From Candidatus Nomurabacteria bacterium GW2011_GWD2_36_14 (GTDB lineage Bacteria; Patescibacteriota; Minisyncoccia; Phycocordibacterales; UBA9973), in NCBI GenBank assembly GCA_000991405.1, contig LBRL01000001.1:315200-379199 (forward strand): DNA of 64,000 nucleotides, given 5' to 3'. The notes under the pieces were generated by a model. The model was not told the origin of the DNA and did no database searches. It was given only the letters and a program-made list of their open reading frames with translations. Within the stretch, counting starts at the first letter, position 1; every line of letters begins with the position of its first letter. Positions 15,904 to 63,627 of this stretch are shown one piece after another. The position numbers were made by a program, and so were the translations under genes.

Positions 15904-18132
15904 ATGAAACTATTAATTGTTGAATCACCATCGAAAGCAAAGACAATAGAAAAATATTTGGACGGCGCTTATACCGTACGCGCCTCTGTTGGACATATAC
16001 GCGACTTACCGAAATCAAATAAAGATGCCATAGATATAGAGGGTGGTTTTATTCCTCGTTATGAAATTTCAAAAGGCAAAGAAAAAGTTGTCCATGATTT
16101 GAAAACTCTTTCAGAAAAAGCGGATACCATAATGCTTGCAACCGACCCGGACCGTGAGGGAGAAGCTATCTCTTGGCATTTAAAAGAACTCTTAGATGCT
16201 GACAAGAAAATAAAAGCCAAGATAAAGCGTGTAGCCTTTCATGAAATTACAAAAGAGGCAGTAGAAGAAGCTTTGAAAAATCCTCGTGATATAGACCAAA
16301 GTCTAGTAAAGGCTCAAGAAGCTCGCAGAGTCCTAGATAGACTTGTAGGATATGACCTATCTGGAATAATCTGGAAGAAAGTCCGATACGGCCTTTCGGC
16401 TGGTAGAGTTCAATCTCCTGCACTCCGTATCATAATGGAAAGGGAAAGAGAAATTCGTGCTTTCATACCTGAACAATATTGGACTCTTGAAGGAAACTTT
16501 GAAACACACAAAAAAAACAAAATAACTTTGTCTTGTGTAGAAGAACCTCGCGACGAAAAAATTGTAAAAAACATTTTGGAACTTGGCAATAAAGAAAAGT
16601 GGTATGTAAAAGATTTGAAAACGAGTGAACAGAAGAGGCAACCTCGTGCTCCTTTTACAACCTCTACCCTTCAACAGACAGCAAGTACTAGACTTGGATT
16701 CTCCCCTTCACGAACAATGCAGGTCGCACAGAAACTTTATGAGCAAGGATTTATAACTTACATGCGTACTGATAGTACCAACTTGAGTCTTGTAGCTCAA
16801 AACCAAATAATTGCACTCGTAGAAAAAAAATATGGTAAAGAATATGCCGAGAAACATACATATAAAGCAAAATCAAAAAATGCTCAAGAAGCCCACGAAG
16901 CAATCCGCCCAACACATATAGAACAATTAAATGCTGGAGCAAATGAAGAGCAACACAAACTTTACCAACTCATATGGGAAAGAGTTGTGTCTTCACAAAT
17001 GTCTGATGCTAAATTATTAAAAACAAAAATAACAGCCAACTTAAAAGAAAATAAGATTCCTGACTTTACTGCCAATGGTTCACGAGTACTTTTCCCCGGG
17101 TGGCTCATATGCGAAACAGGGGCTCGAGGAGAGGATGTAGAACTTCCAGAAGTTACCGTTGGCGAAGAATTAAAGCTTATAGAATTAAATAGTACAGAAA
17201 AGGCCACAGAACCACCCAACCGCTATACTGAAGCAGGGCTTGTGAAAGAGCTTGAAGCTCGTGACATAGGAAGACCTTCTACATATGCATCGATAATGAA
17301 AACTCTCGAAGATAGAGGCTACGTCAGAAAAGAAGGCAAGACATTGTTCCCCACTGACACTGGGGACGTGGTCTCAAGTTTCCTTGAAGAAAATTTCGGT
17401 GAATATATTAGTGATACTTTCACTGCGGATATGGAAGATAAGCTTGACGATATATCAAATGGTAAAAGAGAATATATAAAGACATTGAAAGACTTCTATG
17501 CACCATTCCAAAAAGATGTAAAAGAAAAAGAAAAACTCGCCAAGGCTACAAATATGGGAGAAGCTCCAAGTGACATACTTTGTCCTAAGTGTGAAAGTAG
17601 GATGATAGTTAAACTTTCCCGTGGAGGTAAATTCTACTCTTGTAGCAAATACCCAGACTGCGATGGTGCTAGAACTATCGAAGGAGAAGTTCTAGATGGA
17701 CCAAAAGAAACAGGAGAGATTTGCCCAACTTGTGGGGAGAAGAAAGGTAAAAGTGGTGGAGGAAAACTTGTCATAAGAGTCAGACGTGATGGTGGTGGAA
17801 CTTTCATATCATGTTCTCGTTATCCCAAATGCAAATTTATAAAACAAGACGAAGAAGAAATAAAAAGAAAAATGACAGACATAACTTGCCCAACTTGTAA
17901 TAAAGGCAAAATGATGGAAAGAAAGGGACGCTTTGGAATATTCTATTCGTGTTCCAATTACCCAGATTGTAAAAATGCTATTAAAGCAAAACCCACAGGA
18001 AACATTTGTGAACTCTGTCAGTCACTGATGATGGAAGGTACAAAAACTATTCCGGAAAGATGTAGTAATAAAATGTGTAGAAATCATAACCCGCATAAAC
18101 TTGGCGATAATATAAAATCTAACAAAAAATAA
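15904..18132 (+). CDS. topA: DNA topoisomerase I with C-terminal Zn-ribbon repeats
   Basis: MKLLIVESPSKAKTI Toprim motif, a catalytic Tyr region, and four CxxC...CxxC ribbons. Confidence 0.9.
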   Translation: MKLLIVESPSKAKTIEKYLDGAYTVRASVGHIRDLPKSNKDAIDIEGGFIPRYEISKGKEKVVHDLKTLSEKADTIMLATDPDREGEAISWHLKELLDADKKIKAKIKRVAFHEITKEAVEEALKNPRDIDQSLVKAQEARRVLDRLVGYDLSGIIWKKVRYGLSAGRVQSPALRIIMEREREIRAFIPEQYWTLEGNFETHKKNKITLSCVEEPRDEKIVKNILELGNKEKWYVKDLKTSEQKRQPRAPFTTSTLQQTASTRLGFSPSRTMQVAQKLYEQGFITYMRTDSTNLSLVAQNQIIALVEKKYGKEYAEKHTYKAKSKNAQEAHEAIRPTHIEQLNAGANEEQHKLYQLIWERVVSSQMSDAKLLKTKITANLKENKIPDFTANGSRVLFPGWLICETGARGEDVELPEVTVGEELKLIELNSTEKATEPPNRYTEAGLVKELEARDIGRPSTYASIMKTLEDRGYVRKEGKTLFPTDTGDVVSSFLEENFGEYISDTFTADMEDKLDDISNGKREYIKTLKDFYAPFQKDVKEKEKLAKATNMGEAPSDILCPKCESRMIVKLSRGGKFYSCSKYPDCDGARTIEGEVLDGPKETGEICPTCGEKKGKSGGGKLVIRVRRDGGGTFISCSRYPKCKFIKQDEEEIKRKMTDITCPTCNKGKMMERKGRFGIFYSCSNYPDCKNAIKAKPTGNICELCQSLMMEGTKTIPERCSNKMCRNHNPHKLGDNIKSNKK

Positions 18133-31631: not shown

Positions 31632-31835
31632 CATATTAAAAAACATTATGAAAATAGTGTTTTTTATATGATGTCGGGGAGTAAGCAAACTTCTTTGCTT
31701 ACGTAGAAGACTTGCACAGCGGAGTCATATTTTCTTACCAAAGAAAATAGATGAGCTGGTGACCAGACAAAACTTTTTGACGAAAAAGTTTTAGTCGAGG
31801 TCAAGAAGCGTACCCGCGGTCTTTTCCCCGGCACC
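31632..31835 (+). mobile_element. Second miniature element, homologous to the one after tRNA-Cys. It ends with a 15-bp direct repeat of the tRNA-Leu 3' end (gtcttttccccggca).
   Basis: Hairpin GTAAGCAAActtCTTTGCTTAC (31681-702), then GAAGACTT, then GTACCCGCG (31810-18), then a copy of tRNA-Leu 31617-31631 at 31819-31833. The repeat overlaps the 3' end of the LAGLIDADG ORF. Confidence 0.45.
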
Positions 31836-32483
31836 AAGTTTTTTGGATTGCTTCAAAATTTTAAAGGCTATATTTCTTTTCCTAGATAAAGAAGTATTTT
31901 TACCTTTATATATAAATTGTAAAACTTTTATACTATCTTCTTTTGCAAAAGTTAATGTATAAACTGATGATTCTTTAGGTAGACAAATTGAACCACCTTT
32001 AACTTCAAATAATTCAATACAAGATTTTAATATCCACTCTAGAAATAATTTACTAGCTGAACAAAGCCTTACCTTGTATTGAGGATGCTTACTTTCCTTA
32101 TGTTTTGAAATTGTAATACTTCCATCTCCATCAATACATCCTCGAAGAAAATCTTTAAAATATTCTTTTGGTATTTTTAATTCATTTATCGTTTTAGATT
32201 TTTTGGGAGTAATTCCTATACTTAATAAAAACTCAAAAAAGTTTTTATCTCCAAATTGTAAAACATAATATTTCTTATCTTTTGATCCACCCCGAGCCTT
32301 TTTGCCAATAAGGTTGTTGATTCCTAAACATTTCTTACAATTTAACAGCATTTCTTCATCTTTTGAAGTAATATGAATATGCCGTAAATCTGGAGATAGA
32401 TTACCATCTGTAGCAATTACTCCTATAACATAAGCAAAATCACCATTCCATTTTATTTTCACATTCCCCTTTCGATATGCCAT
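31791..32483 (-). CDS. LAGLIDADG homing endonuclease (two-motif, monomeric type)
   Basis: Motif 1 VIGVIATDGNL and motif 2 LRGCIDGDGSI, ~105 aa apart. The last ~14 codons are read through the tRNA-Leu 3'-end repeat. Confidence 0.75.
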   Translation of the reverse strand: MAYRKGNVKIKWNGDFAYVIGVIATDGNLSPDLRHIHITSKDEEMLLNCKKCLGINNLIGKKARGGSKDKKYYVLQFGDKNFFEFLLSIGITPKKSKTINELKIPKEYFKDFLRGCIDGDGSITISKHKESKHPQYKVRLCSASKLFLEWILKSCIELFEVKGGSICLPKESSVYTLTFAKEDSIKVLQFIYKGKNTSLSRKRNIAFKILKQSKKLGAGEKTAGTLLDLD

Positions 32484-47800: not shown

Positions 47801-50263
47801 ACCTTGAATACGTAATACATCAGTATCATCTGAAATATCACCGAAAATATGTAATTTTTGTTGAGGCGTCGTCGTCCCAATCCCTACCTTCCCATCATTG
47901 AGTATCGTCATCGCTTCAGTTGCTCCATTGTTCCCTACTAGGAAATGCATATCGGCTCCTGTGGCTCCAACACCGGAGGTGGTTTGAAGAGTTAGGTCTG
48001 AAGTAGTAGCAGAACCTCCGAGAATTAGAGGAGTTGTGATGTTGGTTGTAAATACAGGACTCTCTAGGAATGCAAATGTCTTTCTTGCTCCTCCTGTTGT
48101 AATTGTTCCATAGTATGCATCAGTTAGAAACTCTACTGCTCCTGCTTCTGGAGTTGTAAGTAATGTCCCTGAAGTGAATTTTAGTGGAGCAGTTCCTGCT
48201 GTGGCTGTTCCTGCTTTCAAATGCAAGGCTGCTGTAGGAGATGATGTTCCAATCCCGAGGTTTCCGACAAAGTAATTATTGCCTGCACCGAGAACGTTAA
48301 GATTTTGGGCAATGGTTGTGGAAGCGTTGATGGTTAAGGTTTGAAGAGAGGGTGTGGAATTAAACATTCCATAAAGCAAAGCTCCTGCTTTATCACCAGC
48401 AGTATTTGCTCGGTCTTGATTGTCAACATAGAAAGAGTTAGAACCAAGTTCATATGCACCTGCAAACATTCCAAACATTACATTACTATTTCCAAATAGA
48501 TTATATCCTGCTCTATATCCTACAGCTGTGTTATATGAATATGGAGTAGAGCCATTATAGCCAGTTTCTGCACCAATAAGAGTATTTTGTATAAAGACAC
48601 CGGTACCACTATAACCAGCACCATCCCCAATTGCTGTGTTGTTGCTTCCTGTGGTATTGGTGCAGAGAGCACAATCCCCAATTGCTGTGTTGGAGCTTCC
48701 TGTGGTGTTGGAGTAGAGAGACTTACCCCCATTCGCTGTGTTGTAATATCCTGTGGTGTTGGAGTAGAGAGAATTATAACCATTTGCTGTGTTTCTGTAT
48801 CCTGTTGTGTTGGAGTAGAGAGAATGATATCCTACTGCAGTGTTGGCATCAGCTGCGTTAGTTGAAGTTCCAGAGCCTGAAGTTCCTGCTTGATAACCAA
48901 GAAAAGTGTTATATTGAGCTCCTGTCACAATATTGAGTCCTGCATCTTGGCCTACTTTAACATTGAAGTCTGTATTATCTTGAGATAATGGTAAATTATT
49001 TATTGCTGATGTTGTAATATTATACGTACCAAGATTTAGATTTGCATTTGCTCCAGTGTATGGGACATACGAACCAAGTGAGCTTGCTGTTGCATAATAA
49101 CTTCCATGTTGTCCGTCTAGTAAATCGGCGTTTAAGTTTGTAACAAGGCCTGTGTTGGAAGTGGTGAAAGTATTAGCACCTAGAGCTATGTTACCTCCCA
49201 TAGTAAATCCTGCTACTGTGCCTGTGAAGGTAGGACTAGTAAACATTGTGGCTTTGCTTTCGTTGGTTACATTTCCTAGCCCGACGTCAGTTGCTGTGAC
49301 AGTACTCCATGCTGGGACTGCGCCGTTGGTACCTGTGCCTGTCATACTTAAGAAGTTCTTGGTTGTTGTTGTATTGGGAGCAAGTAAGGTAGACGTATCT
49401 GTATCGGACTGATATGGGAGGGAGCCTAAGAGAGTGGTGGAATTGCCACCTGTCAGATTATTGGCCTTGGTGATAGTTCCGACAACGGAAGCATTGAGGT
49501 TTGGAATTGTGACAACACCACTGCCAAAAGTTACAGGCCTGTTGGTAGTAGTATTGATAGACAGTGTCCCGCTTGCATTGGTTCCGTCAATCAGAGGATT
49601 AGTACCAGAGAGGTTGATAGTGTTGCCAGTTATAGTTGTGGTCCCTGTAAATGTCGGGCTGTTTAAAGTTCCACTTTCGGTAATATCATTTGAGTTATTG
49701 GAAATATTTTTATTAACAGAATCATAAATGCGATCAACTTGAAGAGAATTGAAAGAAGCATTGTTGGAGTTAGACCGCTCTAGATTCTGTAGGCGAACAA
49801 TAATACTCGGATCAGTCTGGTTTATAAAAATCGTAGTAGGTCGCTCAATGATACGCTCAACAACTTTAGTTGGAGTTAGTATTTGAGTTGGCAATAATTT
49901 GGTATTGGCTTCTACTTTGTCTTTCGTTTCTATTTTATTTTTCGCTTCTACTTTTTTATTTATTTTTAATACTTTAGGTTGAGTGGCTACAACAGTAGAA
50001 ACTTTTGGTTTAGAATCAGATAAATTAATAAATTCTTTTACTTTATTCCCTATTTGATCTATGAATTCTTTGTATTTATCAAAGGTGGGAGATGTTAATT
50101 GTCTGAATGAGTAGGGAGTATTTAATTCTTGTGTATTTATCTCTGTGTTTGTCTGCGTATCAGACACAGCAAAAGCATTGGTATAAAAACCGAAAAATAA
50201 TACCAAATATAACATCAACAATAGTTTAACTAAGTAAATTTTTGATGACCTAAAATTATTCAT
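44870..50263 (-). CDS. Giant (1797-aa) secreted fibre-like protein with Hep_Hag/YadA-head-like 14-aa repeats, G(N/S)VGIGTT.P..L(H/D)V repeats, a C-terminal peptidase-S74 intramolecular-chaperone-like domain, and a Pro/Thr/Glu-rich tail
   Basis: Signal peptide. Repeats such as NTANGYNSLYSNTTGYY occur about 12 times, and GNVGIGTTTPTGKLDIQG occurs 6 times. Near the C-terminus, SDINLKKNITTLEDIEFILKTIP...YNW.....HIGFIAQEMEQIFPSLV matches the S74 chaperone signature. Confidence 0.6.
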   Translation of the reverse strand: MNNFRSSKIYLVKLLLMLYLVLFFGFYTNAFAVSDTQTNTEINTQELNTPYSFRQLTSPTFDKYKEFIDQIGNKVKEFINLSDSKPKVSTVVATQPKVLKINKKVEAKNKIETKDKVEANTKLLPTQILTPTKVVERIIERPTTIFINQTDPSIIVRLQNLERSNSNNASFNSLQVDRIYDSVNKNISNNSNDITESGTLNSPTFTGTTTITGNTINLSGTNPLIDGTNASGTLSINTTTNRPVTFGSGVVTIPNLNASVVGTITKANNLTGGNSTTLLGSLPYQSDTDTSTLLAPNTTTTKNFLSMTGTGTNGAVPAWSTVTATDVGLGNVTNESKATMFTSPTFTGTVAGFTMGGNIALGANTFTTSNTGLVTNLNADLLDGQHGSYYATASSLGSYVPYTGANANLNLGTYNITTSAINNLPLSQDNTDFNVKVGQDAGLNIVTGAQYNTFLGYQAGTSGSGTSTNAADANTAVGYHSLYSNTTGYRNTANGYNSLYSNTTGYYNTANGGKSLYSNTTGSSNTAIGDCALCTNTTGSNNTAIGDGAGYSGTGVFIQNTLIGAETGYNGSTPYSYNTAVGYRAGYNLFGNSNVMFGMFAGAYELGSNSFYVDNQDRANTAGDKAGALLYGMFNSTPSLQTLTINASTTIAQNLNVLGAGNNYFVGNLGIGTSSPTAALHLKAGTATAGTAPLKFTSGTLLTTPEAGAVEFLTDAYYGTITTGGARKTFAFLESPVFTTNITTPLILGGSATTSDLTLQTTSGVGATGADMHFLVGNNGATEAMTILNDGKVGIGTTTPQQKLHIFGDISDDTDVLRIQGSSASYFTDIGVSHYKSYRAPSTNGGLNFGLDSSDGTGWTGSGGYISFSTNNATGGYNEKVRIDMNGSVGIGTTAPGSKLHVQNTLGTPQKLLILDSDSATDGAGEIIHFTSSTDETVGSQIAGIRESTGGTSYLSFSNYLNGTGIVERMRINGSGSVGIGTTNPASLFHLEGSIPVLTIKDSRSGSSWIHNDILGQIDFNTSDSTGIGAHSVGFIKAINDDSASGYPASPRVSLSFGTGNYNTVSTERMRIDYSGNVGIGTTSPLGKLDVIGNMRITRPGFENNTYQQIEVTDVTTTFNGQDSDGYMTYNFNSNGATNLRINNLGNVGIGTTTPTGKLDIQGLAVNDLPTYSAEFLLDTGWTSTDWTGDFATGWTHTVGNTSVLSHDKVAVNATKYQIAYTVTGRTAGSFTIGFGGQSASSLTATGAWGPTTTSTASLTITPTTDFDGTIVISIKSLTAVSTPLVNLKSSDGTARIEMRANTASGNTFIGVGAGRYNTTGYQNTANGLNSFLANTTGIYNTANGAYSLTTNTTGYYNTAYGHSSLYSNTTGFYNTANGYASLYSNTTGNYNTSNGERSLYSNTTGSNNTANGIESLYSNTTGDSNTADGYGSLNLNTTGSSNTALGYRSGRYIADGTTANTTSDYGVYIGRDTKAGADNNQNEIVIGYNAVGNGSNTATIGTGNVLYVGGASVVGTVARFTSSTGYCDISPLTTALVCSSDINLKKNITTLEDIEFILKTIPDMNGKSTLEKLTYLTPVNYNWNSESDTDARHIGFIAQEMEQIFPSLVFTDPKVDPITGLNLKSISYTNLIPYTIEAIKEMNLKITSIENIDINTSFISNLKGWLASATNGIEIIFAKIMKSDRVETKEFCTSDNECLNEDQLRIMIQEFKNTHTQIPEPQTIPDPEPTPDPVVTPDTTVTTDTEVEDTTTEDTTPPTSSEPVAPEPVVVPEPEAVEVSPTVAPETPVALSNTEE

Positions 50264-55492: not shown

Positions 55493-56902
55493 CTAATTCA
55501 TCCTCTCTTTTATATAGTCCACAATATCTTCTTTTTTAATTCTCTCTTGCTGGCCTGTATCACGGTCACGAATAGTTACAGAATCATCGGACAAAGTATC
55601 AAAGTCTATAACAATACACCAAGGTGTACCTATCTCATCTTGTCTTCGGTATCGCTTGCCTATGTTACCATTATCGTCCCAGACCACCCAGCCAAATTCT
55701 TTCTTTAGTTCTCCATATACACTTTTAGCATAAGTTACAAGCTCTGGTTTATTCTTGAGTAGTGGTGATACACAAGCTTTATAAGGAGCAACAGATGGAG
55801 GTAATTTTAGGTAAACTCTCACATTATTTCCTTCGCCACTTGCCCCGTCGGAAGTACTCTTTCCTTCGGGGTCTTCTCTATAACATGAACACAATGTTGC
55901 AAGTATAGCTCTGTCTACACTGATAGTAGGCTCAATAACGTGAGGAATAAATTTCTCGCCGGTAGCTTCGTCCATCATCCACATAGATTCACCCGAGAAT
56001 TCCTGATGCCTCTTCAGATCAAAGTCTCCTCTATGAGAGAGCCCTGTTAGTTCCTTTGTTCCAAAGGGATATTCAAATTCTAAGTCAACAGTCTTGCGAC
56101 TATAGTGGGCACGAGCAGTCTCAGGATGTTCTAGAGGATGAAGCTTGGCTGTATCAACTCCAATCTTGGAAAGCCATTCCTTTTGTTCTAACAAGAAGTT
56201 GTCAAAGTAAGCCTCCCAAGGAGAAGTCGGGTGTATAAAATATTCAAATTCCATTATTTCAAATTCGCGTAGTCTATAAATAAAGTCACGAGGTGTAATC
56301 TCATTCCTAAATGCCTTCCCTATCTGCGCGATACCAAAAGGAATTTTGGGCGATAAAGATTGCAAAACATTTTTAAAGTTTACAAACATACTCTGAGCTT
56401 CTTCTGGGCGCAAGAAAGTATGGACGGATGTTTCTTCAACTGCACCCATCTTTGTCTCGAGCATAAGATTGAACTTACGAACATCGGAATACTTATTTCC
56501 ATCTGGACTCTTTAGTTCTAACTCTTTTATTTTCTGATCCATCTCTTCTACTGTAAGCTTCTCAGCATTTACTCCAGCATCTTCGAGAATATGGTCAGCA
56601 CGATACCTTTTCTTGGTTACTAAATCATCTACCAAAGGATCTATGAATTCACTTGTGTGTCCTGAAGCATCCCAAACTCTTGGGTGCATAAGTATAGGGG
56701 TGTCTATAAGATAAATATTTTCTCTATTCTTAACAAAGTATTCAATCCAAGAATCCTCAATGTTCTTTTTCAAAAGAGAACCTAAGGGTCCATAATCGAA
56801 AGTTCCAGCCAGTCCTCCATAAATCTCAGACCCCGGATATACAAATCCCCTTCTTTTACAAAGTGATATAATCTTTTCCATTAATTTTTCGTCTTTTTCC
56901 AT
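55493..56902 (-). CDS. glyQS: Glycyl-tRNA synthetase (alpha2 dimeric type)
   Basis: RRGFVYPGSEIYGG...G.YDYGPLG class II motifs and a C-terminal anticodon-binding domain. The gene contains a repeat insert at 55843-55874. Confidence 0.85.
   Translation of the reverse strand: MEKDEKLMEKIISLCKRRGFVYPGSEIYGGLAGTFDYGPLGSLLKKNIEDSWIEYFVKNRENIYLIDTPILMHPRVWDASGHTSEFIDPLVDDLVTKKRYRADHILEDAGVNAEKLTVEEMDQKIKELELKSPDGNKYSDVRKFNLMLETKMGAVEETSVHTFLRPEEAQSMFVNFKNVLQSLSPKIPFGIAQIGKAFRNEITPRDFIYRLREFEIMEFEYFIHPTSPWEAYFDNFLLEQKEWLSKIGVDTAKLHPLEHPETARAHYSRKTVDLEFEYPFGTKELTGLSHRGDFDLKRHQEFSGESMWMMDEATGEKFIPHVIEPTISVDRAILATLCSCYREDPEGKSTSDGASGEGNNVRVYLKLPPSVAPYKACVSPLLKNKPELVTYAKSVYGELKKEFGWVVWDDNGNIGKRYRRQDEIGTPWCIVIDFDTLSDDSVTIRDRDTGQQERIKKEDIVDYIKERMN
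55843..55874. repeat. 32-nt GC-rich repeat GCCCCGTCGGAAGTACTCTTTCCTTCGGGGTC inside glyQS, in frame
   Basis: 31 of 32 positions match 61358-61389 in ileS. It encodes DPEGKSTSDGASG. Confidence 0.65.
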
Positions 56903-56904
56903 AT

Positions 56905-58773
56905 TTAATTTATAACACGTTCCTGCCCTGATTGAAAGCTTGGGTCGCCAGTCAAGAAAGTGTTAATCGGGCCTCTCTTACTGCTAATACTTGTACCAGT
57001 AAATGCATCCGTCCCAGTCAAGAACAAATCCTTCATAAGTTGAGGTACACTTCCGACTTGAGAAAGCGATGGAGTAAGAGCAATAGTGAACGTCGCTTCA
57101 CGATTCAAGCTTCCTCCTGTATTTGCTTTGACAGATCCAATATTCCAAATGACTTCACGTGTTGATTCATTGTAGGAAATATTCTCACGTGGAGATACAG
57201 GAGCCACCCACTTCACATATACAGGTATCGAGGCTCTTGCGACAGCACCACTCACAGCATTGGTAGAGTTCGAAAGAGTCCAAGTTACATTGTACTGTGT
57301 TTCTTTCTCAGCCTTGGGAGGTAGAGCTCCACTCTTAAACGTGGCCGAAGAGGCTATCTGGAAGTCAGATAAGACCTTCACAATCTTCTTTGAGAAATTG
57401 TTCACATCTGTATAAGTAGAACCGAGTGATGGTTGCTTGCCTTTTATACTTACATCGAAAGTCATCTGTGGGTCTTTCACAACATTCTGTCCTCCAATCA
57501 ATGACAAGGATTTAAGACTGAAGCTGACTTCCCCCTTCTCTCCCGGCTCAATATCTGACAATGTCCACACAGAATTCTTGTCCCACACGATACGATTATT
57601 GAAAGAGTCATAGAATCCTTCTTGTGAATTAATAGATGACCTGTCTACGACGTTACCTCCAATATTTGCAATAATCTCTCCGTCTGTAATCCTGTTGGGT
57701 AAATTGTTGGCCCATGCAATTCGTACGTTGATGGTCTCTCCTGCAGAAGTTGTATCGGCGACTAGGATATTGGCTTCAATGAAAGGCTTCACTATAGTCA
57801 CACTATGTAGGATAGAACTATATACCACATCAACAGTAGATCTATCGGTGGGTCTGGTCGTCCCTGCATACACGTGGAAGACTTGCTGGTCTTGATCTAG
57901 TCCTATGATTCTACCTTTTACCACCACCGAGACTGGGTTCGTCAGACTAAGAGCACTCAAGCTCCAAATAGAATTACCGAAAGTTGGAGCAGGCACTGCA
58001 CTTTCATAAATAAAATTATTGGGGTAAGTTAATTGCATTACAGTATCACCATTAGGTAATGCCGTATTCAAAGTTGCCTTAACTGTAAACATTACTGGTT
58101 GATCTGAAGTCACAGTATCTGGAGCTTCTATAGACAGAGTTAGGGGGGATAAGCTTATATTGACTCCATAATTTATTTCCTTTGTGAAGATGGCATTGGA
58201 ACCTTCGGGGTGATAGTCAAGCTTGATATTTACATTGCGATCTGTCTTCTCATCTCCATACAAAATAACTTTTATATCTTTGGTGATAGTCTCACCCGGC
58301 TTGATAGTCCCTATATCTATACGTGGTAATCTGGTCACGTCAGCTACATTGTCGCTAGCTCCGCTAGGGTAAGATATTTGTAGATTTGCAAGTACAAGGT
58401 TCGTCTTGTTGCGGTTCACTATTTCTACTTGCAAAGGAAGCTCCTCCCCTCCTTTAGTAAAGGCACTACCGGCAACTTTGATATCTATATTGTCGCTTGA
58501 GACAGAAGTCCCTCCTGTATAAAATTTATACGAAGCAACCCCCACTGCTATCACAAAGAAGATGATGGCAAAAATAAAGAACTTTTTAAAAATAGATGTC
58601 TTAGGTTTTTTCATTACGTTCATAGAGTTAGTAAATTCTTCATTCTTCCATTCTTGATCTACCTTATGTTCTATCGGGTGAAGTATGCCTTCCTTAGATC
58701 TGTGAGTCACAGTATCTCTTGGCTCATAAAGGCGACGCTTAATATCTTCAATTTTATTTTCATTTTCTTGCAT
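56905..58773 (-). CDS. Hypothetical membrane-anchored protein with a large beta-rich extracytoplasmic domain
   Basis: About 65 aa of cytoplasmic N-terminus, one TM segment (FFIFAIIFFVIAVGVA), then 540 aa with no recognised motif. It is co-oriented with recO and glyQS. Confidence 0.35.
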   Translation of the reverse strand: MQENENKIEDIKRRLYEPRDTVTHRSKEGILHPIEHKVDQEWKNEEFTNSMNVMKKPKTSIFKKFFIFAIIFFVIAVGVASYKFYTGGTSVSSDNIDIKVAGSAFTKGGEELPLQVEIVNRNKTNLVLANLQISYPSGASDNVADVTRLPRIDIGTIKPGETITKDIKVILYGDEKTDRNVNIKLDYHPEGSNAIFTKEINYGVNISLSPLTLSIEAPDTVTSDQPVMFTVKATLNTALPNGDTVMQLTYPNNFIYESAVPAPTFGNSIWSLSALSLTNPVSVVVKGRIIGLDQDQQVFHVYAGTTRPTDRSTVDVVYSSILHSVTIVKPFIEANILVADTTSAGETINVRIAWANNLPNRITDGEIIANIGGNVVDRSSINSQEGFYDSFNNRIVWDKNSVWTLSDIEPGEKGEVSFSLKSLSLIGGQNVVKDPQMTFDVSIKGKQPSLGSTYTDVNNFSKKIVKVLSDFQIASSATFKSGALPPKAEKETQYNVTWTLSNSTNAVSGAVARASIPVYVKWVAPVSPRENISYNESTREVIWNIGSVKANTGGSLNREATFTIALTPSLSQVGSVPQLMKDLFLTGTDAFTGTSISSKRGPINTFLTGDPSFQSGQERVIN

Positions 58774-58797
58774 GTCTATTATTATATCATAATTAAT

Positions 58798-59382
58798 TTA
58801 AAGTTGACTCTCGTTCAGAGCTTTATTGATATGAGAGATTATAGACCTTTTCTCTCGAAGCAAGGTTTCCGTCTGACTCAAGTCTATCTTCCCTCCGAGG
58901 TAGTCGGTGAGCATGAGCGAGTCCCCGATATAACCCAGTGCATTCATAATACGAAGCACCAGATGAAGCTCAAGTGCCTCACGAGAAGATGCAGATACAT
59001 TCATGTCATCGAGCAAGAACAGGACTTGTATAAAGTCATCAAATATCTTCTCATTGGATTCTTCTCCATCGCAAAGTCTTTCAAGAAGTTTACTTATTCG
59101 AGCAATCATTAGAAGCGATCTCTTAGAAGAGCGAGCGAAAGGAAAGGTGGAAATATTTGAAGCTGTTGTTATCCGCCATATATCCTTGCCTCTGACGAAG
59201 TCAATATGAGAATACGACAAGTCCTGCAGAGAGAATCGAAGTTTTGACTTATGAAGTCTTATGCCTTGCACCATCGCCCGCACCAAGCCCATCTCACGTG
59301 TATAAACCGTCAGCATCTTATTCGCCTCACCTTTATTGTGAGAACTTAGTACAAATCCATGTGTGTGATAAATATGATGCAT
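58798..59382 (-). CDS. recO: DNA repair protein RecO (short)
   Basis: N-terminal OB-fold pattern GFVL......GE.....V.T...G.....V.G.R.....L. Confidence 0.55.
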   Translation of the reverse strand: MHHIYHTHGFVLSSHNKGEANKMLTVYTREMGLVRAMVQGIRLHKSKLRFSLQDLSYSHIDFVRGKDIWRITTASNISTFPFARSSKRSLLMIARISKLLERLCDGEESNEKIFDDFIQVLFLLDDMNVSASSREALELHLVLRIMNALGYIGDSLMLTDYLGGKIDLSQTETLLREKRSIISHINKALNESQL

Positions 59383-60020
59383 TATATTTCTTCTTCTTTG
59401 CCTATTTCTAATTTCCTAAAAAGAATATCATCTTCTTTTAAAATTGTTTCTGGAATTCTCCATGCTGAAGTTGAGAAGTCCTGCAATATCGCATCATGCA
59501 CTCCGAAGCAAATCCTGGGTCTAATATGCTTTGCGTATTCTATCGCTTCAGATAGTTTCATCCATGGACCTGCTACAGGGAGAGCAAGTATATCCACGTC
59601 TACATCTGGGTAACTGAAAGAGTCTCCTGCATAGCAGAGATTATCTATCATGTAGCCAGTATTTTGAACTCTTCCGAAATCTTCATATATCTGTGCATGG
59701 ATATTACCAAAACCAGAGATAATAATTCCTTCCAATTCATACTTTTCTCCTTCTTCTACTTTTATATATGGTATACCATTTTGATCTAGAATATTTCCGA
59801 CAGAAGTATTGGTTATCACAACAGCACTTGGATTGTTTTTCAAAACATCCTTCAGAGAATCCACATGCAAATGGTCTTGGTGTTCGTGTGTAATCAGAAT
59901 CGCATTTATATTGGTTTCTCCAACTTGGAGTATCGAATAAGCCCCAGGATCGGTCATAATTCTGACCCCCTCTTTAGGTTCCACTACGAAACAGCAATGC
60001 CCAAGTTTCTTAATCTTCAT
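59382..60020 (-). CDS. MBL-fold metal-dependent hydrolase
   Basis: ILITHEHQDHLH motif (HxHxDH). Confidence 0.7.
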   Translation of the reverse strand: MKIKKLGHCCFVVEPKEGVRIMTDPGAYSILQVGETNINAILITHEHQDHLHVDSLKDVLKNNPSAVVITNTSVGNILDQNGIPYIKVEEGEKYELEGIIISGFGNIHAQIYEDFGRVQNTGYMIDNLCYAGDSFSYPDVDVDILALPVAGPWMKLSEAIEYAKHIRPRICFGVHDAILQDFSTSAWRIPETILKEDDILFRKLEIGKEEEI

Positions 60021-60024
60021 CTTT

Positions 60025-63000
60025 CTATTTTACCAAATTTACAACAAATACTAAACCATCAATTTTTATTTCCCTAAATGCTTCAGTAGAAGCATCGGGC
60101 GATCCAATTTCATTGGATTTAGCCTCACCAGAATTATCCTTAAATTGTAAGTCTTTTGCACCGACAGCTTTCAGAAGCTCGTTTTTCCATTTGTTTATGA
60201 GTTCTTGTCCATCTACAGAAGTTTCAATTTCAAGAGCTATTATATCGTTTGGATTAAGTCCTGCTTTCTTTCTCATATCCTGAATAGCACGGACAAGCTC
60301 ACGGTAGTTCCCTTCTTGTTTTAACTCTTCTGTAATATTAGTATCTAGTTCAACTTTTAATTCTTCGCCTTTTATAAATTCTATTTTTTTAATATTTAAT
60401 TCGTCTTTTAAAATTTCAATATACTCATTACCTAATTTATAATCTACTTGAATATTATTTGATTCATTATTTAATAAATATGTAACTAACAATTTATTGA
60501 GTGGCTGACGAACAGGAATATTATTCTTTTGACGTTGTTGTAATCCAAGAGTTACAATTTCTCGTGTTGTTTCCATATTTATACGAACTTCTGAATGCCA
60601 AAATTCTCTTTTTGATTCTGGCCATTCTACAAGATGCACACTTTCTTTATCCTCTTCATTCTTTAATTTCTGCCAAATATCTTCAGAAGCAAACGGTGCA
60701 AATGGAGCCATAAGTGTCACCAATGTTTTTAATACATAATACAATGTTTGTTTAGCCTCAACATCCCCATCCTTAAGTCTTTCACGGCTTCGACGAACAT
60801 ACCAAGTAGATAAGTCATCCATAAAGTCGCGAATTGCTCGAACGGGTTCTAGAAGTTTATAATTTTCCATATTTTTAGTAATCGTATCTGTAAGCTCTGA
60901 CAGACGAGCAATAATCCACTTGTCCAAAGTGTTTCCTGACTCAATTTTAGTAGTTGAACTACTAAAATTTTTCTCTAGGCTTTTATCTCGATAAAGCTCG
61001 TAAAAAGCTAAAACGTTATATAGCAAATTAAAAACTTTACTATGAAGTTCCGCTACTGTCTTCTCATCAAAACTTTTAGCTTCGCCAGGTTGATTGACTC
61101 CATACATCCAAAGACGAAGGGTATCTACTCCGTATTTATGCATCATCTCCCAAGGGTCTACAATGTTGCCAAGACTCTTACTCATCTTCTTTCCATTGGC
61201 ATCAAGAAGAAGCCCCAGACAAATCACATTCTTGTATGCCTTGCCCTTACCCATAAGTACACCCACAGCATGTAGTGTATAGAACCATCCACGAGTCTGA
61301 TCGAGTGCTTCTGATATAAAATCAGCAGGATATAAAATCTGTTGTTCTTTATTCCCTGCCCCGTTGGAAGTACTCTTTCCTTCGGGGTCAAATGGATAAT
61401 GGTCTTGTGAGAATGGCATTGTACCTGAGTCCAACCAGACATCCAGAACTTCTTTCTCTCTTTTTAAATTTCCTCCGCAACTACATACCAAGCTTATCTC
61501 ATCTATAAAAGGCTTATGTAGATCAAGCTCATAATTCTCATTATGAGGAAGAGCTACAAAGTTCAATTCTCTTATCTCAGCATTTCTCAAGTATGGAGGA
61601 AAGTTTTCGTCAGTCGGTAATGTCTCGTAAGAGAAGCCTTGCACCACATGACACAGTGCACTAGTCTCCCCAGCATGACCTATGAGAAGAATATTCTTAC
61701 CAGAGTATTGGCTATCTATTTCATAAATCATTTTCCCTACTCGATTAATAACTTGCGAATAACTCTCTCCGTTTGGCATCGCTTCAAATGGATGCTCCTT
61801 ATACTGATTGCAATAAAATTCTTCGAAAGCTTCTCGCGACTTTCCTTGATAATCCGAACTTACATCCCATTCTTTCTCAAGATCGTTATAAATAACTTTA
61901 TCCAGTGGATAGCCAATCTGCTCACAAAGAATTTTTGTTGTTTCTCTAGCTCTCTCTAGAGGGGATGCTATGATGACATCAATTTTCTCTTTAAAATTTT
62001 TAGAACTTTCTATTACTTGCTCTACCCCAAATTTTGTAAGTTTGCAATTATTAGCTTCTTCATCATTCATTACAGTCTCGCTAACATTACATTCTGCCTG
62101 TCCATGACGCATGACCCAGTACTTGTTCCCTGACTTTTTAACTTTTGACTTTAAACTTTCTAAACTACCTACAACTTCCCTATTATTACATTCCGCACAA
62201 GTCCAAATAGGTAAAGGTGTACCCCAATAACGCTCACGAGAGATAGCCCAATCCTTTATGTCTTTCAACCATTCACCGAAACGCCCTTCTTTAATATATG
62301 AAGGCTCCCAATTTATACTTTTATTTTCTTCTATCAACTGATTTTTAATTTTCGGATCTGACATCTTGATATACCAAGAATCACGAGCATAGTATATAAG
62401 TGCCGTCTTACAACGCCAGCAGTGTGGGTATGAGTGCTCATACTTTTCTTTCTTAAACAGAAGTCCTCGGTGTGCTAAATCTTTTATAATATCTACAGCC
62501 ACCTCCTCGTCGCGAACAAATCGCCCTTCAAGAAAGTCTGTACCTGCTAAATACTTTCCATCAAGTCCTACCATGTGATGCTTCGGTAAGCCTACTTCAT
62601 TACCCAAAGCAAAGTCATCTTGCCCATACATGACAGCCGTATGCACAACTCCTGTACCATCTTCTGTAGTTACAAAATCCGCCGAGTAAACCTTGAATGC
62701 TTTTTCAAGCTTGGGCTTCTCAGTATCTGAAATAGTATTTGAAAGATATGGATATAGAGGTTCGTATTCTAAGCGTGTAAGTATAATGTGTGGTATAGTC
62801 TCCCATGTTGAAAAATTATCCTGTTTATACTCAGAAAAAATTTTATTAGCTAATTCTTCTGCTAAAATATAAAATTCATTTCCAACTTTAACTTTAATAT
62901 ATTCAATATCTTTACCTATCGCTAGTGCTACGTTTCCAGGAAGAGTCCAAGGTGTCGTTGTCCAAGCAAGTATATAAGTATTATCCTGTCCTTTCACTTT

Positions 63001-63627
63001 AAATTTCGCATATACAGACAAATCTTTCACATCCATATACCCTTGAGCAAGTTCATGCGAGGAAAGAGTCGTACCACAACGAGGACACCAAGGCACAACC
63101 TTGTAGTCTTTATAAATCAATCCTTGTTTATCTGTTTCTTTTATAACATTCCAAACGGACTCAATATAATCATTGTGATAAGTCACGTAGGCATTCTTCT
63201 GGTCTACCCAGTAACCCATACGTTCAGTGAATTTCTCCCAGAGATCAACATACTCCCAGACACTTTCTTTGCATTCTTTATTGAACTTTGCAATTCCGTA
63301 TTCTTCAATAGCTTTCTTGGAAGTTAGTCCCAACTTCTTCTCAACTTGAAGTTCAACAGGAAGTCCATGAGTATCCCAGCCACCCTTACGACGCACATGA
63401 TATCCTCGCATAGTTTTATAACGAGGAATCACATCTTTGAAAGCACGAGCCTCCAAGTGGTGAATTCCCGGCTTGCCATTGGCAGTTGGAGGACCCTCGT
63501 AGAAAACATACTCACCCTTCGGAGCATCTTTCTCCAAGCTCTTTTCGAAAATTTTATTTTCTTTCCAGAATTTTAAAACTTCCTCTTCTCTTAAAGCTCC
63601 CGCTGATTTTTTGTTTTCTTCACTCAT
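60025..63627 (-). CDS. ileS: Isoleucyl-tRNA synthetase carrying an inserted histidine-phosphatase (PGAM-type) domain
   Basis: HIGH as PGIHHL and KMSKS as KMSKSLGN. The editing domain and Zn motifs are present. About 190 aa (RHGQ...SPLERARET...GHAGE) are inserted between ...PIWTCAECNN and ...LHKPFIDEI. A second repeat insert lies at 61358-61389. Confidence 0.9.
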   Translation of the reverse strand: MSEENKKSAGALREEEVLKFWKENKIFEKSLEKDAPKGEYVFYEGPPTANGKPGIHHLEARAFKDVIPRYKTMRGYHVRRKGGWDTHGLPVELQVEKKLGLTSKKAIEEYGIAKFNKECKESVWEYVDLWEKFTERMGYWVDQKNAYVTYHNDYIESVWNVIKETDKQGLIYKDYKVVPWCPRCGTTLSSHELAQGYMDVKDLSVYAKFKVKGQDNTYILAWTTTPWTLPGNVALAIGKDIEYIKVKVGNEFYILAEELANKIFSEYKQDNFSTWETIPHIILTRLEYEPLYPYLSNTISDTEKPKLEKAFKVYSADFVTTEDGTGVVHTAVMYGQDDFALGNEVGLPKHHMVGLDGKYLAGTDFLEGRFVRDEEVAVDIIKDLAHRGLLFKKEKYEHSYPHCWRCKTALIYYARDSWYIKMSDPKIKNQLIEENKSINWEPSYIKEGRFGEWLKDIKDWAISRERYWGTPLPIWTCAECNNREVVGSLESLKSKVKKSGNKYWVMRHGQAECNVSETVMNDEEANNCKLTKFGVEQVIESSKNFKEKIDVIIASPLERARETTKILCEQIGYPLDKVIYNDLEKEWDVSSDYQGKSREAFEEFYCNQYKEHPFEAMPNGESYSQVINRVGKMIYEIDSQYSGKNILLIGHAGETSALCHVVQGFSYETLPTDENFPPYLRNAEIRELNFVALPHNENYELDLHKPFIDEISLVCSCGGNLKREKEVLDVWLDSGTMPFSQDHYPFDPEGKSTSNGAGNKEQQILYPADFISEALDQTRGWFYTLHAVGVLMGKGKAYKNVICLGLLLDANGKKMSKSLGNIVDPWEMMHKYGVDTLRLWMYGVNQPGEAKSFDEKTVAELHSKVFNLLYNVLAFYELYRDKSLEKNFSSSTTKIESGNTLDKWIIARLSELTDTITKNMENYKLLEPVRAIRDFMDDLSTWYVRRSRERLKDGDVEAKQTLYYVLKTLVTLMAPFAPFASEDIWQKLKNEEDKESVHLVEWPESKREFWHSEVRINMETTREIVTLGLQQRQKNNIPVRQPLNKLLVTYLLNNESNNIQVDYKLGNEYIEILKDELNIKKIEFIKGEELKVELDTNITEELKQEGNYRELVRAIQDMRKKAGLNPNDIIALEIETSVDGQELINKWKNELLKAVGAKDLQFKDNSGEAKSNEIGSPDASTEAFREIKIDGLVFVVNLVK
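61358..61389. repeat. 32-nt GC-rich repeat GCCCCGTTGGAAGTACTCTTTCCTTCGGGGTC inside ileS, in frame
   Basis: Near-identical copy of the glyQS repeat. It encodes DPEGKSTSNGAG. Confidence 0.65.

What the first reader, a model, noticed from the sequence alone, without database searches (positions are those of the whole stretch)
55843..61389. Near-identical 32-nt GC-rich element inserted in frame in two different aminoacyl-tRNA synthetase genes (glyQS and ileS)
The sequence GCCCCGT(C/T)GGAAGTACTCTTTCCTTCGGGGTC occurs at 55843-55874 inside glyQS and at 61358-61389 inside ileS. In this ~35% GC genome it stands out. Both copies are in frame on the minus strand and add almost the same peptide: DPEGKSTS(D/N)GA(S)G. 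The peptide falls in a spot where neither enzyme family normally has it. The element contains a CC-UUCG-GG tetraloop-like hairpin. This is the behaviour of Rickettsia palindromic elements (RPEs): a selfish or structured repeat that spreads into coding sequence and is tolerated as a surface loop. To my knowledge it is not described for CPR-type genomes.
Basis: seen in the sequence. Interest (0 to 1): 0.7.

Follow-up and report, generated by a model that had tools for sequence, protein, structure and literature searches.

The report
Eleven-codon hairpin repeat inside essential genes
A 33-base GC-rich hairpin sequence has been copied, always keeping the reading frame, into dozens of different essential genes of tiny groundwater bacteria (Nomurabacteria and relatives), so it behaves like a miniature selfish DNA element that lives inside proteins.

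Summary
The same 33-nt sequence (1 mismatch) lies in frame in glyQS and ileS, about 5.5 kb apart.

It is an insertion. 117 of 120 close GlyRS homologues and 114 of 120 IleRS homologues lack it, and an 89%-identical GlyRS allele differs by exactly 33 nt.

It belongs to a large family in Patescibacteria (Nomurabacteria/Paceibacteria):
- 58 exact-core copies occur in 44 species-level MAGs.
- About 90 further copies, with other loop sequences, occur in metagenomes.
- They sit in more than 50 host genes, including UvrA/C/D, TopA, PNPase, IF-2, FtsK, FtsZ, RpoD and several aaRS.
- Copies are almost always in the sense orientation.
- All three sense frames are used (42:13:8) and are always open in the host frame, so the element is translated.
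- Loop variants with a frame-0 stop are not found translated through in frame 0.

The stems show compensatory changes. One example is GGAA/TTCC to CCAA/TTGG, which turns Gly and Ser into Pro and Trp. The hairpin is therefore what is conserved, not the peptide.

Presence is patchy and not monophyletic. Permissive loops are hit repeatedly, and decayed copies exist.

Best reading: a REP/RPE-like miniature mobile hairpin element that resides mainly in coding sequence. The mobilising enzyme is unknown. Intragenic REPs are known in other phyla, so this is a new family and variant, not a new kind.

The parts
55839..55871 (-). Element copy 1 (33 nt, sense strand 5'-CCCCGAAGGAAAGAGTACTTCCGACGGGGCAAG-3'), inserted in glyQS after the 2nd base of an Asp/Glu codon. 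It encodes (D)PEGKSTSDGA(S). The hairpin proper is 55843-55871. The conserved preceding A is at 55872.
   Evidence: sequence; the empty allele L058 differs by exactly these 33 nt; fold.
61355..61387 (-). Element copy 2 (33 nt, 5'-CCCCGAAGGAAAGAGTACTTCCAACGGGGCAGG-3'), inserted in ileS in the HYPF(E/D)|..YPADF loop. It encodes (D)PEGKSTSNGAG. The hairpin is 61359-61387. The preceding A is at 61388.
   Evidence: 114/120 homologues have no intact element there; codon view and fold.
55493..56902 (-). Host gene 1: glycine--tRNA ligase (alpha2 type), 469 aa. The insert is at about residues 344-355, in the linker between the catalytic core and the anticodon-binding domain.
   Evidence: Pfam tRNA-synt_2b + HGTP_anticodon; 100% identical to GlyRS of Ca. 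Nomurabacteria RIFOXYC2_FULL_36_8; PDB 8u2q alignment; AF2 model: coil, pLDDT<50 at 347-358.
60025..63627 (-). Host gene 2: isoleucine--tRNA ligase, 1200 aa. The insert is at residues about 747-758. The protein also carries an internal histidine-phosphatase domain (residues 504-671), which is not part of the element.
   Evidence: Pfam.
15904..18132 (+). Context: topA of this genome is EMPTY at two sites where orthologues in other genomes carry the element (presence/absence polymorphism). The same holds for dnaX/holB 10519-11568(-), purQ 4403-5176(-) and infB 29360-30871(+).
   Evidence: Pfam; pairwise alignments: exact 11-aa gaps for TopA site 1 and IF-2.

Best explanation
The two 33-nt segments are copies of a miniature, non-autonomous, hairpin-forming repeat element. 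It is REP/RPE-like in behaviour and resides mainly inside protein-coding genes of Patescibacteria of the Nomurabacteria/Paceibacteria group.

Shown:
- The unit is a block of exactly 11 codons; 12-codon variants also exist.
- The consensus is 5'-A|CCCCG-AA-GGAA-(7-nt loop)-TTCC-NA-CGGGG-CAGG-3'.
- It is inserted after an A with no evident target duplication, almost always in the sense orientation.
- It contains no stop codon in any sense frame, so the host ORF survives and the element is translated.
- Frame 0, the commonest, gives PEGKxxS(Y/N/D)GAG. The other frames give TPKExxLPTGQ or PRRKxxFLRGR.

Inferred:
- Copies persist only where 11 extra residues are harmless, that is in linkers and surface loops of large modular proteins. 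This is why the same loops are hit again and again.
- Copies later decay or are lost.
- The outer stem, the preceding A and the CAGG tail are the parts recognised by whatever copies the element. The inner helix only has to pair.
- Insertion is polar. The sense strand of the element behaves as if it were added to a growing or single DNA strand. This could be HUH/RAYT-type single-strand transposition or copy-choice template switching.
- No enzyme has been identified.
For: **Insertion, not ancestral sequence**
- An 89%-identical GlyRS allele lacks exactly 33 nt.
- 11-aa gaps appear against empty orthologues in TopA, IF-2, DnaX and IleRS.

**Repeat family in many hosts**
- 58 exact-core copies in 44 MAGs, 1-4 per MAG.
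- More than 35 host sites in the canonical set, including UvrA x2, UvrC, UvrD, TopA x2, PNPase, IleRS x3, ArgRS, PheT, GatB, IF-2, RNR, enolase, Fpg and Xth.
- About 90 more copies with other loops, in IF-2, PurQ, TsaD, FtsK, CCA-adding enzyme, RpoD, FtsZ and TIM.

**Translated**
- Internal coding copies: 47/60 sense frame 0; in the wider family 42:13:8 over the three sense frames, with 1 antisense.
- Loop variants with TAA/TGA in frame 0 (AGTAAGC, AGTAAAC, AGTGAAC) lie in frame 1, outside genes, or, in one case (L144), supply the host ORF's stop codon near its 3' end.

**The hairpin, not the peptide, is conserved**
- Inner stem GGAA/TTCC changes to CCAA/TTGG in two IleRS copies, giving Gly to Pro and Ser to Trp.
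- CCCCA/TGGGG and CGAA/TTCG variants occur.
- A subfamily has a C-G / T-A / A-T covarying pair.
- 3 pairs show changes on both sides; 0/500 shuffles reach the covariation score.

**Nucleotide conservation beyond coding need**
- Synonymous differences occur in 45-50% of same-aa codons across GlyRS, but in 0-1 of 10-12 element codons. These orthologues were found by protein homology, so they are unbiased with respect to the DNA.
- Positions not fixed by the search: A at -1 in 59/60 copies; tail CA(G/A)G in 58/60.

**Turnover and recurrence**
- Element-bearing GlyRS are not monophyletic (0/300 bootstraps).
- The IleRS site carries four different loop variants in four lineages.
- The PNPase loop carries intact, 12-codon and decayed copies, with two junctions one codon apart.

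**Loop location**
- AF2 coil, pLDDT<50. The linker is length-variable in the PDB homologue.

**Polarity**
- At seven gene-end loci the clean duplicate of the gene end lies on the CAGG side of the element.
Against: - No transposase or other candidate enzyme was found in the window. No larger composite element bounded by the termini was found in about 1.1 Mb of loci.
- Copy number is low for a mobile repeat: 2 in 64 kb, and 1-4 canonical copies per MAG.
- No de novo insertion between near-identical strains was observed, so mobility is inferred from distribution.
- Most stem positions in the large samples were fixed by my own search patterns. The covariation evidence therefore rests on about 6 independently found variants.
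- The strong synonymous conservation in GlyRS orthologues fits two readings equally: recent independent insertions, or selection acting in place. I cannot separate them.
- The sense-orientation bias could be partly due to selection, because the antisense frames are more hydrophobic and one carries TAG.
Confidence: 0.75

Rival explanations
1. Host-selected structured signal. Under this reading the hairpin (as RNA in the mRNA, or as DNA) is kept by selection in place because it does something for the cell. It might be a shared binding site for a regulator or RNase on replication, repair and translation mRNAs. It might instead be a recombination or DNA-uptake drive signal. The peptide would then be a by-product.
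For: - Stems, the preceding A and the CAGG tail are conserved at 4-fold degenerate sites, while flanking codons are 45-50% synonymously diverged.
- Compensatory stem changes override the peptide.
- One G.U-compatible change (TGGGG in L181) fits RNA pairing.
- Hosts include many genome-maintenance and translation genes. A similar bias was noted for intragenic REPs (PMC3733652).
- The genome encodes DprA and RecO.
Against: - Most orthologues of every host examined do without it: 117/120 GlyRS, 114/120 IleRS, about 95/120 PNPase.
- Copies decay in place (PEGKQASHESSD, NPLRQSSSEASE, DPVGSKEQKIL).
- Positions within genes are scattered and correspond to permissive loops.
- Density, about 1 per 30 kb, is far below that of known uptake sequences.
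- The element arrives as a 33-nt block, not by point mutation.
Confidence: 0.12
2. Functional peptide module. Under this reading the 11 residues PEGKSTS(Y/N/D)GAG are a selected protein tag, such as a modification, interaction or cleavage site, added to many proteins.
For: - Frame 0 is the commonest frame (47/60 and 42/63).
- The peptide is hydrophilic and rich in Gly, Ser and Pro.
Against: - The same DNA is read in two other frames in bona fide genes, giving unrelated peptides: IF-2, FtsK, FtsZ and CCA enzyme in frame 1; PurQ, TsaD, RpoD and TIM in frame 2.
- It is also read antisense in TrmD.
- Compensatory stem changes replace Gly by Pro and Ser by Trp.
- Synonymous sites are conserved.
Confidence: 0.03
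3. Untranslated intervening sequence. Under this reading the hairpin is skipped by the ribosome (as in T4 gene 60 or mitochondrial 'byp' elements) or is removed from the mRNA.
For: - It is a GC-rich hairpin in an AT-rich genome inside essential genes, as for byps.
- Gene-end copies are followed or preceded by intact coding duplicates.
Against: - Every internal copy is a multiple of 3 (33 or 36 nt) and is open in the host frame.
- No variant carrying a frame-0 stop is read through in frame 0. A skipped element would not need this.
- Decayed copies remain in frame.
- No matched take-off and landing codons flank the element.
Confidence: 0.03
4. Ancestral homologous loop or chance similarity. Under this reading the two segments are old parts of GlyRS and IleRS, or resemble each other by chance.
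For: None beyond their in-frame position.
Against: - 0 matches in shuffles.
- Absent from almost all orthologues, with a clean 33-nt indel.
- The identical sequence occurs in dozens of unrelated genes.
Confidence: 0.01

Closest known systems
Intragenic REP elements (GTAG- and CGTC-tagged palindromic repeats; Di Nocera et al. 2013, PMC3733652)
   Same: - Small (20-40 bp) imperfect palindromes with a short conserved tail at one end.
- Some copies lie in frame inside known genes. The hosts overlap strikingly: uvrA, uvrB, UvrD-type helicases, dnaE, tRNA synthetases.
- Some genes are hit twice (compared).
- Thought to be selfish and tolerated in linkers.
   Different: - REPs are mostly extragenic, often dimeric, and can reach hundreds of copies. 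Here about 80% of copies are intragenic, copies are single, and there are only a few per genome.
- No GTAG or CGTC tag sits at an end. GTAG occurs only internally, on the antisense strand, in about 73% of copies.
- No RAYT gene has been seen.
- Unit length is an exact multiple of three.
- The phylum is different (Patescibacteria).
Rickettsia palindromic elements (RPE-1 and relatives; Ogata et al. 2000, from my own knowledge; also summarised in PMC3733652)
   Same: - A palindromic repeat inserted in frame into unrelated essential genes of a reduced genome.
- It is translated, and is thought to sit at the protein surface.
   Different: - RPE-1 is about 100-150 bp, against 33 nt here.
- RPEs are restricted to Rickettsia.
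- RPE copies are old and diverged. Here the cores are near-identical across many species, with recurrent hits in the same loops and visible turnover.
Mobile GC clusters of yeast mitochondrial DNA, including the optional in-frame cluster in var1, and 'byp' elements of Magnusiomyces (from my own knowledge; not read here)
   Same: - GC-rich palindromic clusters of about 30-50 bp in an AT-rich genome.
- They enter coding sequence and show presence/absence polymorphism.
   Different: - Those elements are organellar.
- Byps are bypassed by the ribosome and need not preserve the frame. Here the frame is always preserved.
IS200/IS605-type single-strand (HUH/Y1) transposition and its miniature derivatives
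   Same: - A hairpin-defined element with insertion 3' of a short target (here an A).
- No target duplication at the GlyRS site.
- Strong strand and orientation polarity.
   Different: - No Y1 transposase was identified.
- There is one hairpin rather than distinct left and right ends.
- The resemblance is mechanistic only and is untested.

Membership tests
RPE (Rickettsia palindromic elements) | Palindromic repeat present in many copies and inserted in frame in unrelated, functional ORFs | tested here: met
RPE (Rickettsia palindromic elements) | Element size and sequence of the RPE families (RPE-1 about 100-150 bp) and occurrence in Rickettsia | tested here: not met
   The unit is 33 nt. All hits are Patescibacteria MAGs. 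Sequence similarity to RPE consensus sequences was not computed.
RPE (Rickettsia palindromic elements) | Encoded segment lies at the protein surface or in a loop | tested here: met
   GlyRS: coil, pLDDT<50 between two domains. The loop is length-variable in homologues. Only GlyRS was modelled.
REP (repetitive extragenic palindromes, GTAG/CGTC superfamilies) | 20-40 bp imperfect palindrome forming a stem-loop | tested here: met
REP (repetitive extragenic palindromes, GTAG/CGTC superfamilies) | GTAG or CGTC tetranucleotide at one end of the unit (PMC3733652) | tested here: not met
   The ends are A-CCCC... and ...CAGG. GTAG is internal, across the internal loop, on the antisense strand, and variable: T 44, A 13, G 3 of 60 at that position.
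REP (repetitive extragenic palindromes, GTAG/CGTC superfamilies) | Predominantly extragenic, often in dimers or clusters, tens to thousands per genome | tested here: not met
   49/60 canonical copies are in frame inside genes and 11/60 are at gene ends. Units are single. There are 1-4 canonical copies per MAG and 2 in 64 kb.
REP (repetitive extragenic palindromes, GTAG/CGTC superfamilies) | Association with a RAYT (Y1/HUH transposase) gene flanked by the repeats | not tested
   No transposase was found among the window ORFs of at least 150 aa.
MITE | Terminal inverted repeats plus a target-site duplication; 50-400 bp | tested here: not met
   No duplication at the GlyRS filled/empty junction. 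Size is 33 nt. The two hairpin arms could be read as 11-nt inverted termini.
Translational-bypass elements (T4 gene 60, mitochondrial byps) | Insert is not decoded, so frame and stop codons inside it are irrelevant; matched take-off and landing codons | tested here: not met
   All internal copies are 3n long and open in the host frame. No stop-containing loop is read through in frame 0.
DNA uptake sequences (DUS/USS) | Short motif at about 1 per kb, arising by point mutation under uptake-biased drive | tested here: not met
   Density is about 1 per 30 kb. The element arrives as a 33-nt block.

The most novel reading that the evidence does not exclude
The element is not only tolerated. Under this reading its hairpin, with the flanking A and the CAGG tail, is maintained by selection or by a molecular drive at each site. 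It would act as a shared cis signal on genes of replication, repair and translation in these ultra-small cells. The signal could be an RNA-level regulon tag, or a signal that biases recombination or uptake of the alleles carrying it.

This reading would account for three observations: the conservation at synonymous sites, the reappearance of the element at the same codon in non-sister lineages, and the gene-end 'patches' made of synonymously diverged gene fragments.
Probability: 0.1. Interest if true: 0.85.

Novelty: new variant of a known kind. Interest (0 to 1): 0.62.

Why it matters
Candidate-phyla-radiation bacteria have tiny, gene-dense genomes and were not known, as far as I could find, to carry repeat elements of this sort. 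Here a selfish sequence has solved the lack of intergenic space by being exactly 11 codons long and open in all three sense frames. It therefore colonises essential proteins such as aminoacyl-tRNA synthetases, UvrABC, TopA, IF-2, FtsZ and sigma-70.

- **Protein evolution.** It is a natural, repeated experiment in where proteins tolerate 11 extra residues, and a source of new loop sequence.
- **Annotation and phylogenomics.** It causes recurrent, non-homologous 'homologous-looking' inserts in marker genes.
- **Mobile DNA.** The family is short and sharply defined. It shows covarying stems, a fixed A|...CAGG boundary, a strong orientation bias and polar gene-end duplications. Together these give unusually clean constraints on how REP-like hairpins are copied, which is still unresolved.

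Tried and rejected
- **Known RNA family.** Rfam, at gathering thresholds, on 11 loci with non-coding copies found only a tRNA and a cobalamin riboswitch elsewhere, and nothing at the element.
- **Part of a larger composite element.** I searched all loci for solo left or right termini and for pairs up to 4 kb apart. I found only short length variants (34, 36 and 53 nt) and no long pairs.
- **Phage-borne.** 0 matches in 2.9 million viral contigs.
- **Concerted evolution within a genome.** Rejected, because different loop variants co-occur in one contig or even one gene (L045, L053).
- **Single ancient insertion in GlyRS.** Rejected, because the element-bearing alleles are not monophyletic.
- **CRISPR-like mini-array (L073, two copies 106 nt apart).** This is a tandem duplication of the xth 5' end, not an array.
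- **Assembly artefact.** Rejected. The same architecture appears in MAGs from independent studies, the copies are in frame, and the duplicates are diverged. One scaffold gap does abut an element (L037).
- **High-GC hits of the loose metagenome pattern.** About 25 of the 120 loci are unrelated hairpins and were set aside.
- **Technical failures.** DNA for P0129 (a possible partly deleted copy) could not be fetched.


Full report
**1. Observation**

The identity extends to 33 nt with one mismatch. No further copy exists in the 64 kb even at 12 mismatches, and window G+C is 36.9%.

Both copies lie in minus-strand ORFs that Pfam identifies as GlyRS (55493-56902) and IleRS (60025-63627). The GlyRS protein is 100% identical to that of Candidatus Nomurabacteria bacterium RIFOXYC2_FULL_36_8. 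The peptides are DPEGKSTSDGAS and DPEGKSTSNGAG.

The sequence folds as a two-tier hairpin, CCCCG..GGAA-(7 nt)-TTCC..CGGGG. MFE is -14.7 to -18.8 kcal/mol and z is -2.6 to -3.8 on either strand.

**2. It is an insertion**

- Among the 120 closest GlyRS homologues, only P0001 (the window), P0002 and P0004 carry the segment. P0003, at 89% identity, and all the others read YRE(E/D)|GEG.
- Codon alignment of the window, two filled alleles and the empty allele shows a clean 33-nt difference: C CCC GAA GGA AAG AGT ACT TCC GAC GGG GCA GG. It is placed after the second base of a GAN codon, with no target duplication.
- In IleRS, 4 of 120 homologues carry an intact copy at the same codon and 2 carry a stem variant. 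The rest have short, length-variable loops.
- Genes that are empty in this window (topA, infB, dnaX/holB, purQ) show 11-aa gaps against element-bearing orthologues. The gap is exact for TopA site 1 and for IF-2.

**3. It is a family**

A scan of one genome per species for CCCCGNNGGAAGTACTCTTTCCNNCGGGG gave 57 loci with 58 copies in 44 MAGs. They are labelled Nomurabacteria, Paceibacterota, Patescibacteria or, in one automated series, 'Saccharibacteria', with 1-4 copies each.

Of the 60 canonical copies, window included:
- 47 lie in long ORFs in one orientation and one frame.
- 2 are in frame but antisense (TrmD).
- 11 lie at gene ends or between genes.

Hosts of the canonical set:
- UvrA (two sites), UvrC, UvrD/PcrA, TopA (two sites) and PNPase.
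- IleRS (three sites), ArgRS, PheT, GatB and IF-2.
- Ribonucleotide reductase, enolase, transketolase, Fpg and exonuclease III.
- DnaX/HolB, ComM-like, MurD-like, CopA, DsbD-like, TrhO-like and cobalamin adenosyltransferase.

Positions not fixed by the pattern are also conserved. The base before the element is A in 59/60 copies, and the tail is CAGG in 47 or CAAG in 11 of 60.

- AGCAAGC in 42 copies (peptide PEGKQASYGAG).
- AGAGTAC in 12.
- AGATTAC in 6.
- AGAATAC, AGTAAAC, AGTAAGC, AGTGAAC and others in smaller numbers.

About 25 high-GC hits are unrelated. Length variants of 36 nt and one of 53 nt share the same termini. There was no hit in viral contigs and no Rfam family at the element.

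**4. It is translated, and the peptide is not what is conserved**

In the wider family, internal coding copies use sense frames 0, 1 and 2 in the ratio 42:13:8, with one antisense. The frame-1 and frame-2 hosts are real genes: IF-2, FtsK, FtsZ and CCA-adding enzyme in frame 1; PurQ, TsaD, RpoD and TIM in frame 2. They read the element as TPKESKLPTGQ or PRRKASFLRGR.

Loop variants with a stop in frame 0 occur in frame 1, outside genes, or, in one case (L144), supply the host ORF's stop codon near its 3' end. All internal copies are 3n long and open in the host frame. This argues against ribosomal bypass or removal of the element. The use of three frames argues against a selected peptide.

**5. 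The hairpin is conserved**

- Two IleRS copies found by protein homology have the inner stem changed from GGAA/TTCC to CCAA/TTGG. This changes Gly to Pro and Ser to Trp while keeping the fold (-13.6 and -17.0 kcal/mol).
- Other independently found variants are CCCCA/TGGGG and CGAA/TTCG. There is also a subfamily whose inner helix has a C-G, T-A or A-T pair at one position.
- On 61 distinct sequences, 99.1% of cells pair and 3 pairs change on both sides. No shuffle of 500 reaches the covariation score.
- Caveat: for most rows the stems were fixed by my own patterns.

In the unbiased GlyRS trio, 45-50% of same-aa codons differ synonymously across the gene (182/405, 197/391, 189/384). Only 1/10, 0/12 and 1/11 of the element's codons do.

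**6. Turnover and recurrence**

- Element-bearing GlyRS alleles are not monophyletic (0/300 bootstraps). Each has closer empty relatives.
- A distant GlyRS lineage (L091) carries the QA-loop variant in the same codon.
- The IleRS site carries ST, IT, GT and QA loops in four lineages.
- In PNPase, about 25 of 120 close homologues have an insert in the CVRIGKY(D) loop. These include intact ST, QA, IT and GT copies, 12-residue variants, two junctions one codon apart (KY|PEGK and KYD|PEGK), and decayed copies (PEGKQASHESSD, NPLRQSSSEASE, PEREPSAPYGAG).
- Unrelated short inserts occupy the same IleRS and PNPase loops.

I read this as repeated insertion, survival only in permissive loops, and subsequent decay or loss. 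Selection in place on the hairpin cannot be excluded.

**7. Location in the protein**

An AlphaFold2 model of the window GlyRS (58-sequence alignment, mean pLDDT 77.7) puts the insert in coil with pLDDT below 50 (residues 347-358). It lies between strand 341-345 and the first strand of the anticodon-binding domain, 361-365. The closest solved GlyRS (8u2q) has a shorter, gapped linker there.

**8. Gene-end copies (unexplained, probably informative)**

Copies outside ORFs are mostly embedded in a duplicated fragment of the neighbouring gene's end.

- At the 3' ends of uvrA (four species) and of an RNase Y-like gene, the layout is [..A B stop][A' ELEMENT B' stop].
- At the 5' ends of dnaE, clpP (two successive rounds in L176), xth (two identical 106-nt units in L073) and a zinc-ribbon protein gene, the mirror image occurs.
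- A systematic screen found 8 such copies among 152, at 6 sites.
- In all seven independent sites (six from the screen plus dnaE, seen by eye), the clean, functional copy lies on the CAGG-tail side of the element. The element is in sense orientation at 5' ends and antisense at 3' ends.
- Older duplicates differ almost only at synonymous sites. The L073 duplicates are identical.

A model that fits is insertion onto a growing sense strand, with an occasional jump back on the template. The functional copy would later be replaced by recombination. This is inference only.

**9. Comparison with what is known**

Di Nocera et al. 2013 (PMC3733652) describe REPs with a GTAG or CGTC tag. Some lie in frame inside uvrA, uvrB, dnaE, recB, helicase and tRNA-synthetase genes of Proteobacteria, Opitutus and Rickettsia (RPE-4 and RPE-6). 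The general phenomenon, and even the host bias, is therefore known.

This family differs in several ways:
- It has no terminal tag.
- It is mainly intragenic.
- Its units are single and 3n long.
- Its copy number is low.
- It is conserved across a whole class of Patescibacteria.

Three full-text searches found nothing on such elements in CPR. No transposase is encoded in the window. Whole genomes could not be scanned.

**10. Verdict**

The element is a new, coding-resident variant of the REP/RPE kind. The copying mechanism is unknown. Interest is moderate to high, mainly for CPR genome biology and for the mechanistic constraints that the family offers.

Noticed in passing
window 60025-63627 (-), residues about 504-671 of IleRS: The IleRS carries an internal histidine-phosphatase (His_Phos_1, PF00300) domain with RHG...H motifs, inserted in the catalytic core. 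All 120 closest homologues carry it too (precomputed Pfam). An aminoacyl-tRNA synthetase fused to a phosphatase domain across a whole clade seems worth a separate look.
   Followed up: partly
L005, L014, L035, L049 (uvrA 3'); L033 (RNase Y-like 3'); L110 (zinc-ribbon gene 3'); L047 (dnaE 5'); L040, L176 (clpP 5'); L073 (xth 5'); L003, L019, L050, L164 (zinc-ribbon gene 5'): Element copies at gene ends sit in a duplicated fragment of the gene end. The clean functional copy is always on the CAGG-tail side of the element. Older duplicates differ almost only at synonymous sites. L073 has identical 106-nt units and L176 has three successive clpP starts. The mechanism is unexplained.
   Followed up: partly
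window 11801-11864 (inside Dus gene 11586-12626, -) and 28100-28165 (inside class-V aminotransferase gene 27438-28706, -): This is a second, unrelated GC-rich palindrome family: a 13-bp perfect stem GGCCTTGCCTC..GAGGCAAGGCC, with folds of -36 to -44 kcal/mol. Two copies lie in opposite orientations, both in frame inside genes, giving the peptides GRERPCLKGARGKASRSQE and GKGAPQGLASDSLEARPFPAS. It is not present in the other loci held.
   Followed up: partly
IleRS loop HYPF|..YPADF and PNPase loop CVRIGKY|.. in homologues (P0137, P0160, P0186, P0209, P0218, P0225; P0153, P0156; P0255, P0270): Other recurrent short inserts occupy the same loops: DFAQGKPF/DFARGKPF, PIPPKGRAK/PQPFPKGRVK and PARNASGIADAGG. 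They may be further in-frame repeat families.
   Followed up: no
window 31791-32483 (-): This is a free-standing 230-aa ORF with a LAGLIDADG_3 homing-endonuclease-like domain (E 2.3e-10), between infB and a cation-efflux gene. About 900 nt of unassigned sequence lie upstream of it.
   Followed up: no
window 44870-50263 (-), repeats at 45922-46278 and 48574-48828: This 1797-aa ORF contains 51/102-nt tandem coding repeats (family D1) and a Peptidase_S74 (endosialidase chaperone) domain near its C terminus. It looks like a large surface or fibre-like protein.
   Followed up: no
L037 about 1980-2030: A scaffold gap (run of N) abuts an element copy, and CGCCGCCTGCC is repeated on both sides of the gap. 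Assemblers evidently have trouble at some copies.
   Followed up: no
L062, L113, L135, L075, L141 (human-gut metagenome contigs, G+C about 0.5): The loose pattern picked up a different perfect palindrome, CCCCGTAGGAA-GTAGCAA-TTCCTACGGGG, that recurs in gut metagenome contigs. It is unrelated in context and was not examined.
   Followed up: no
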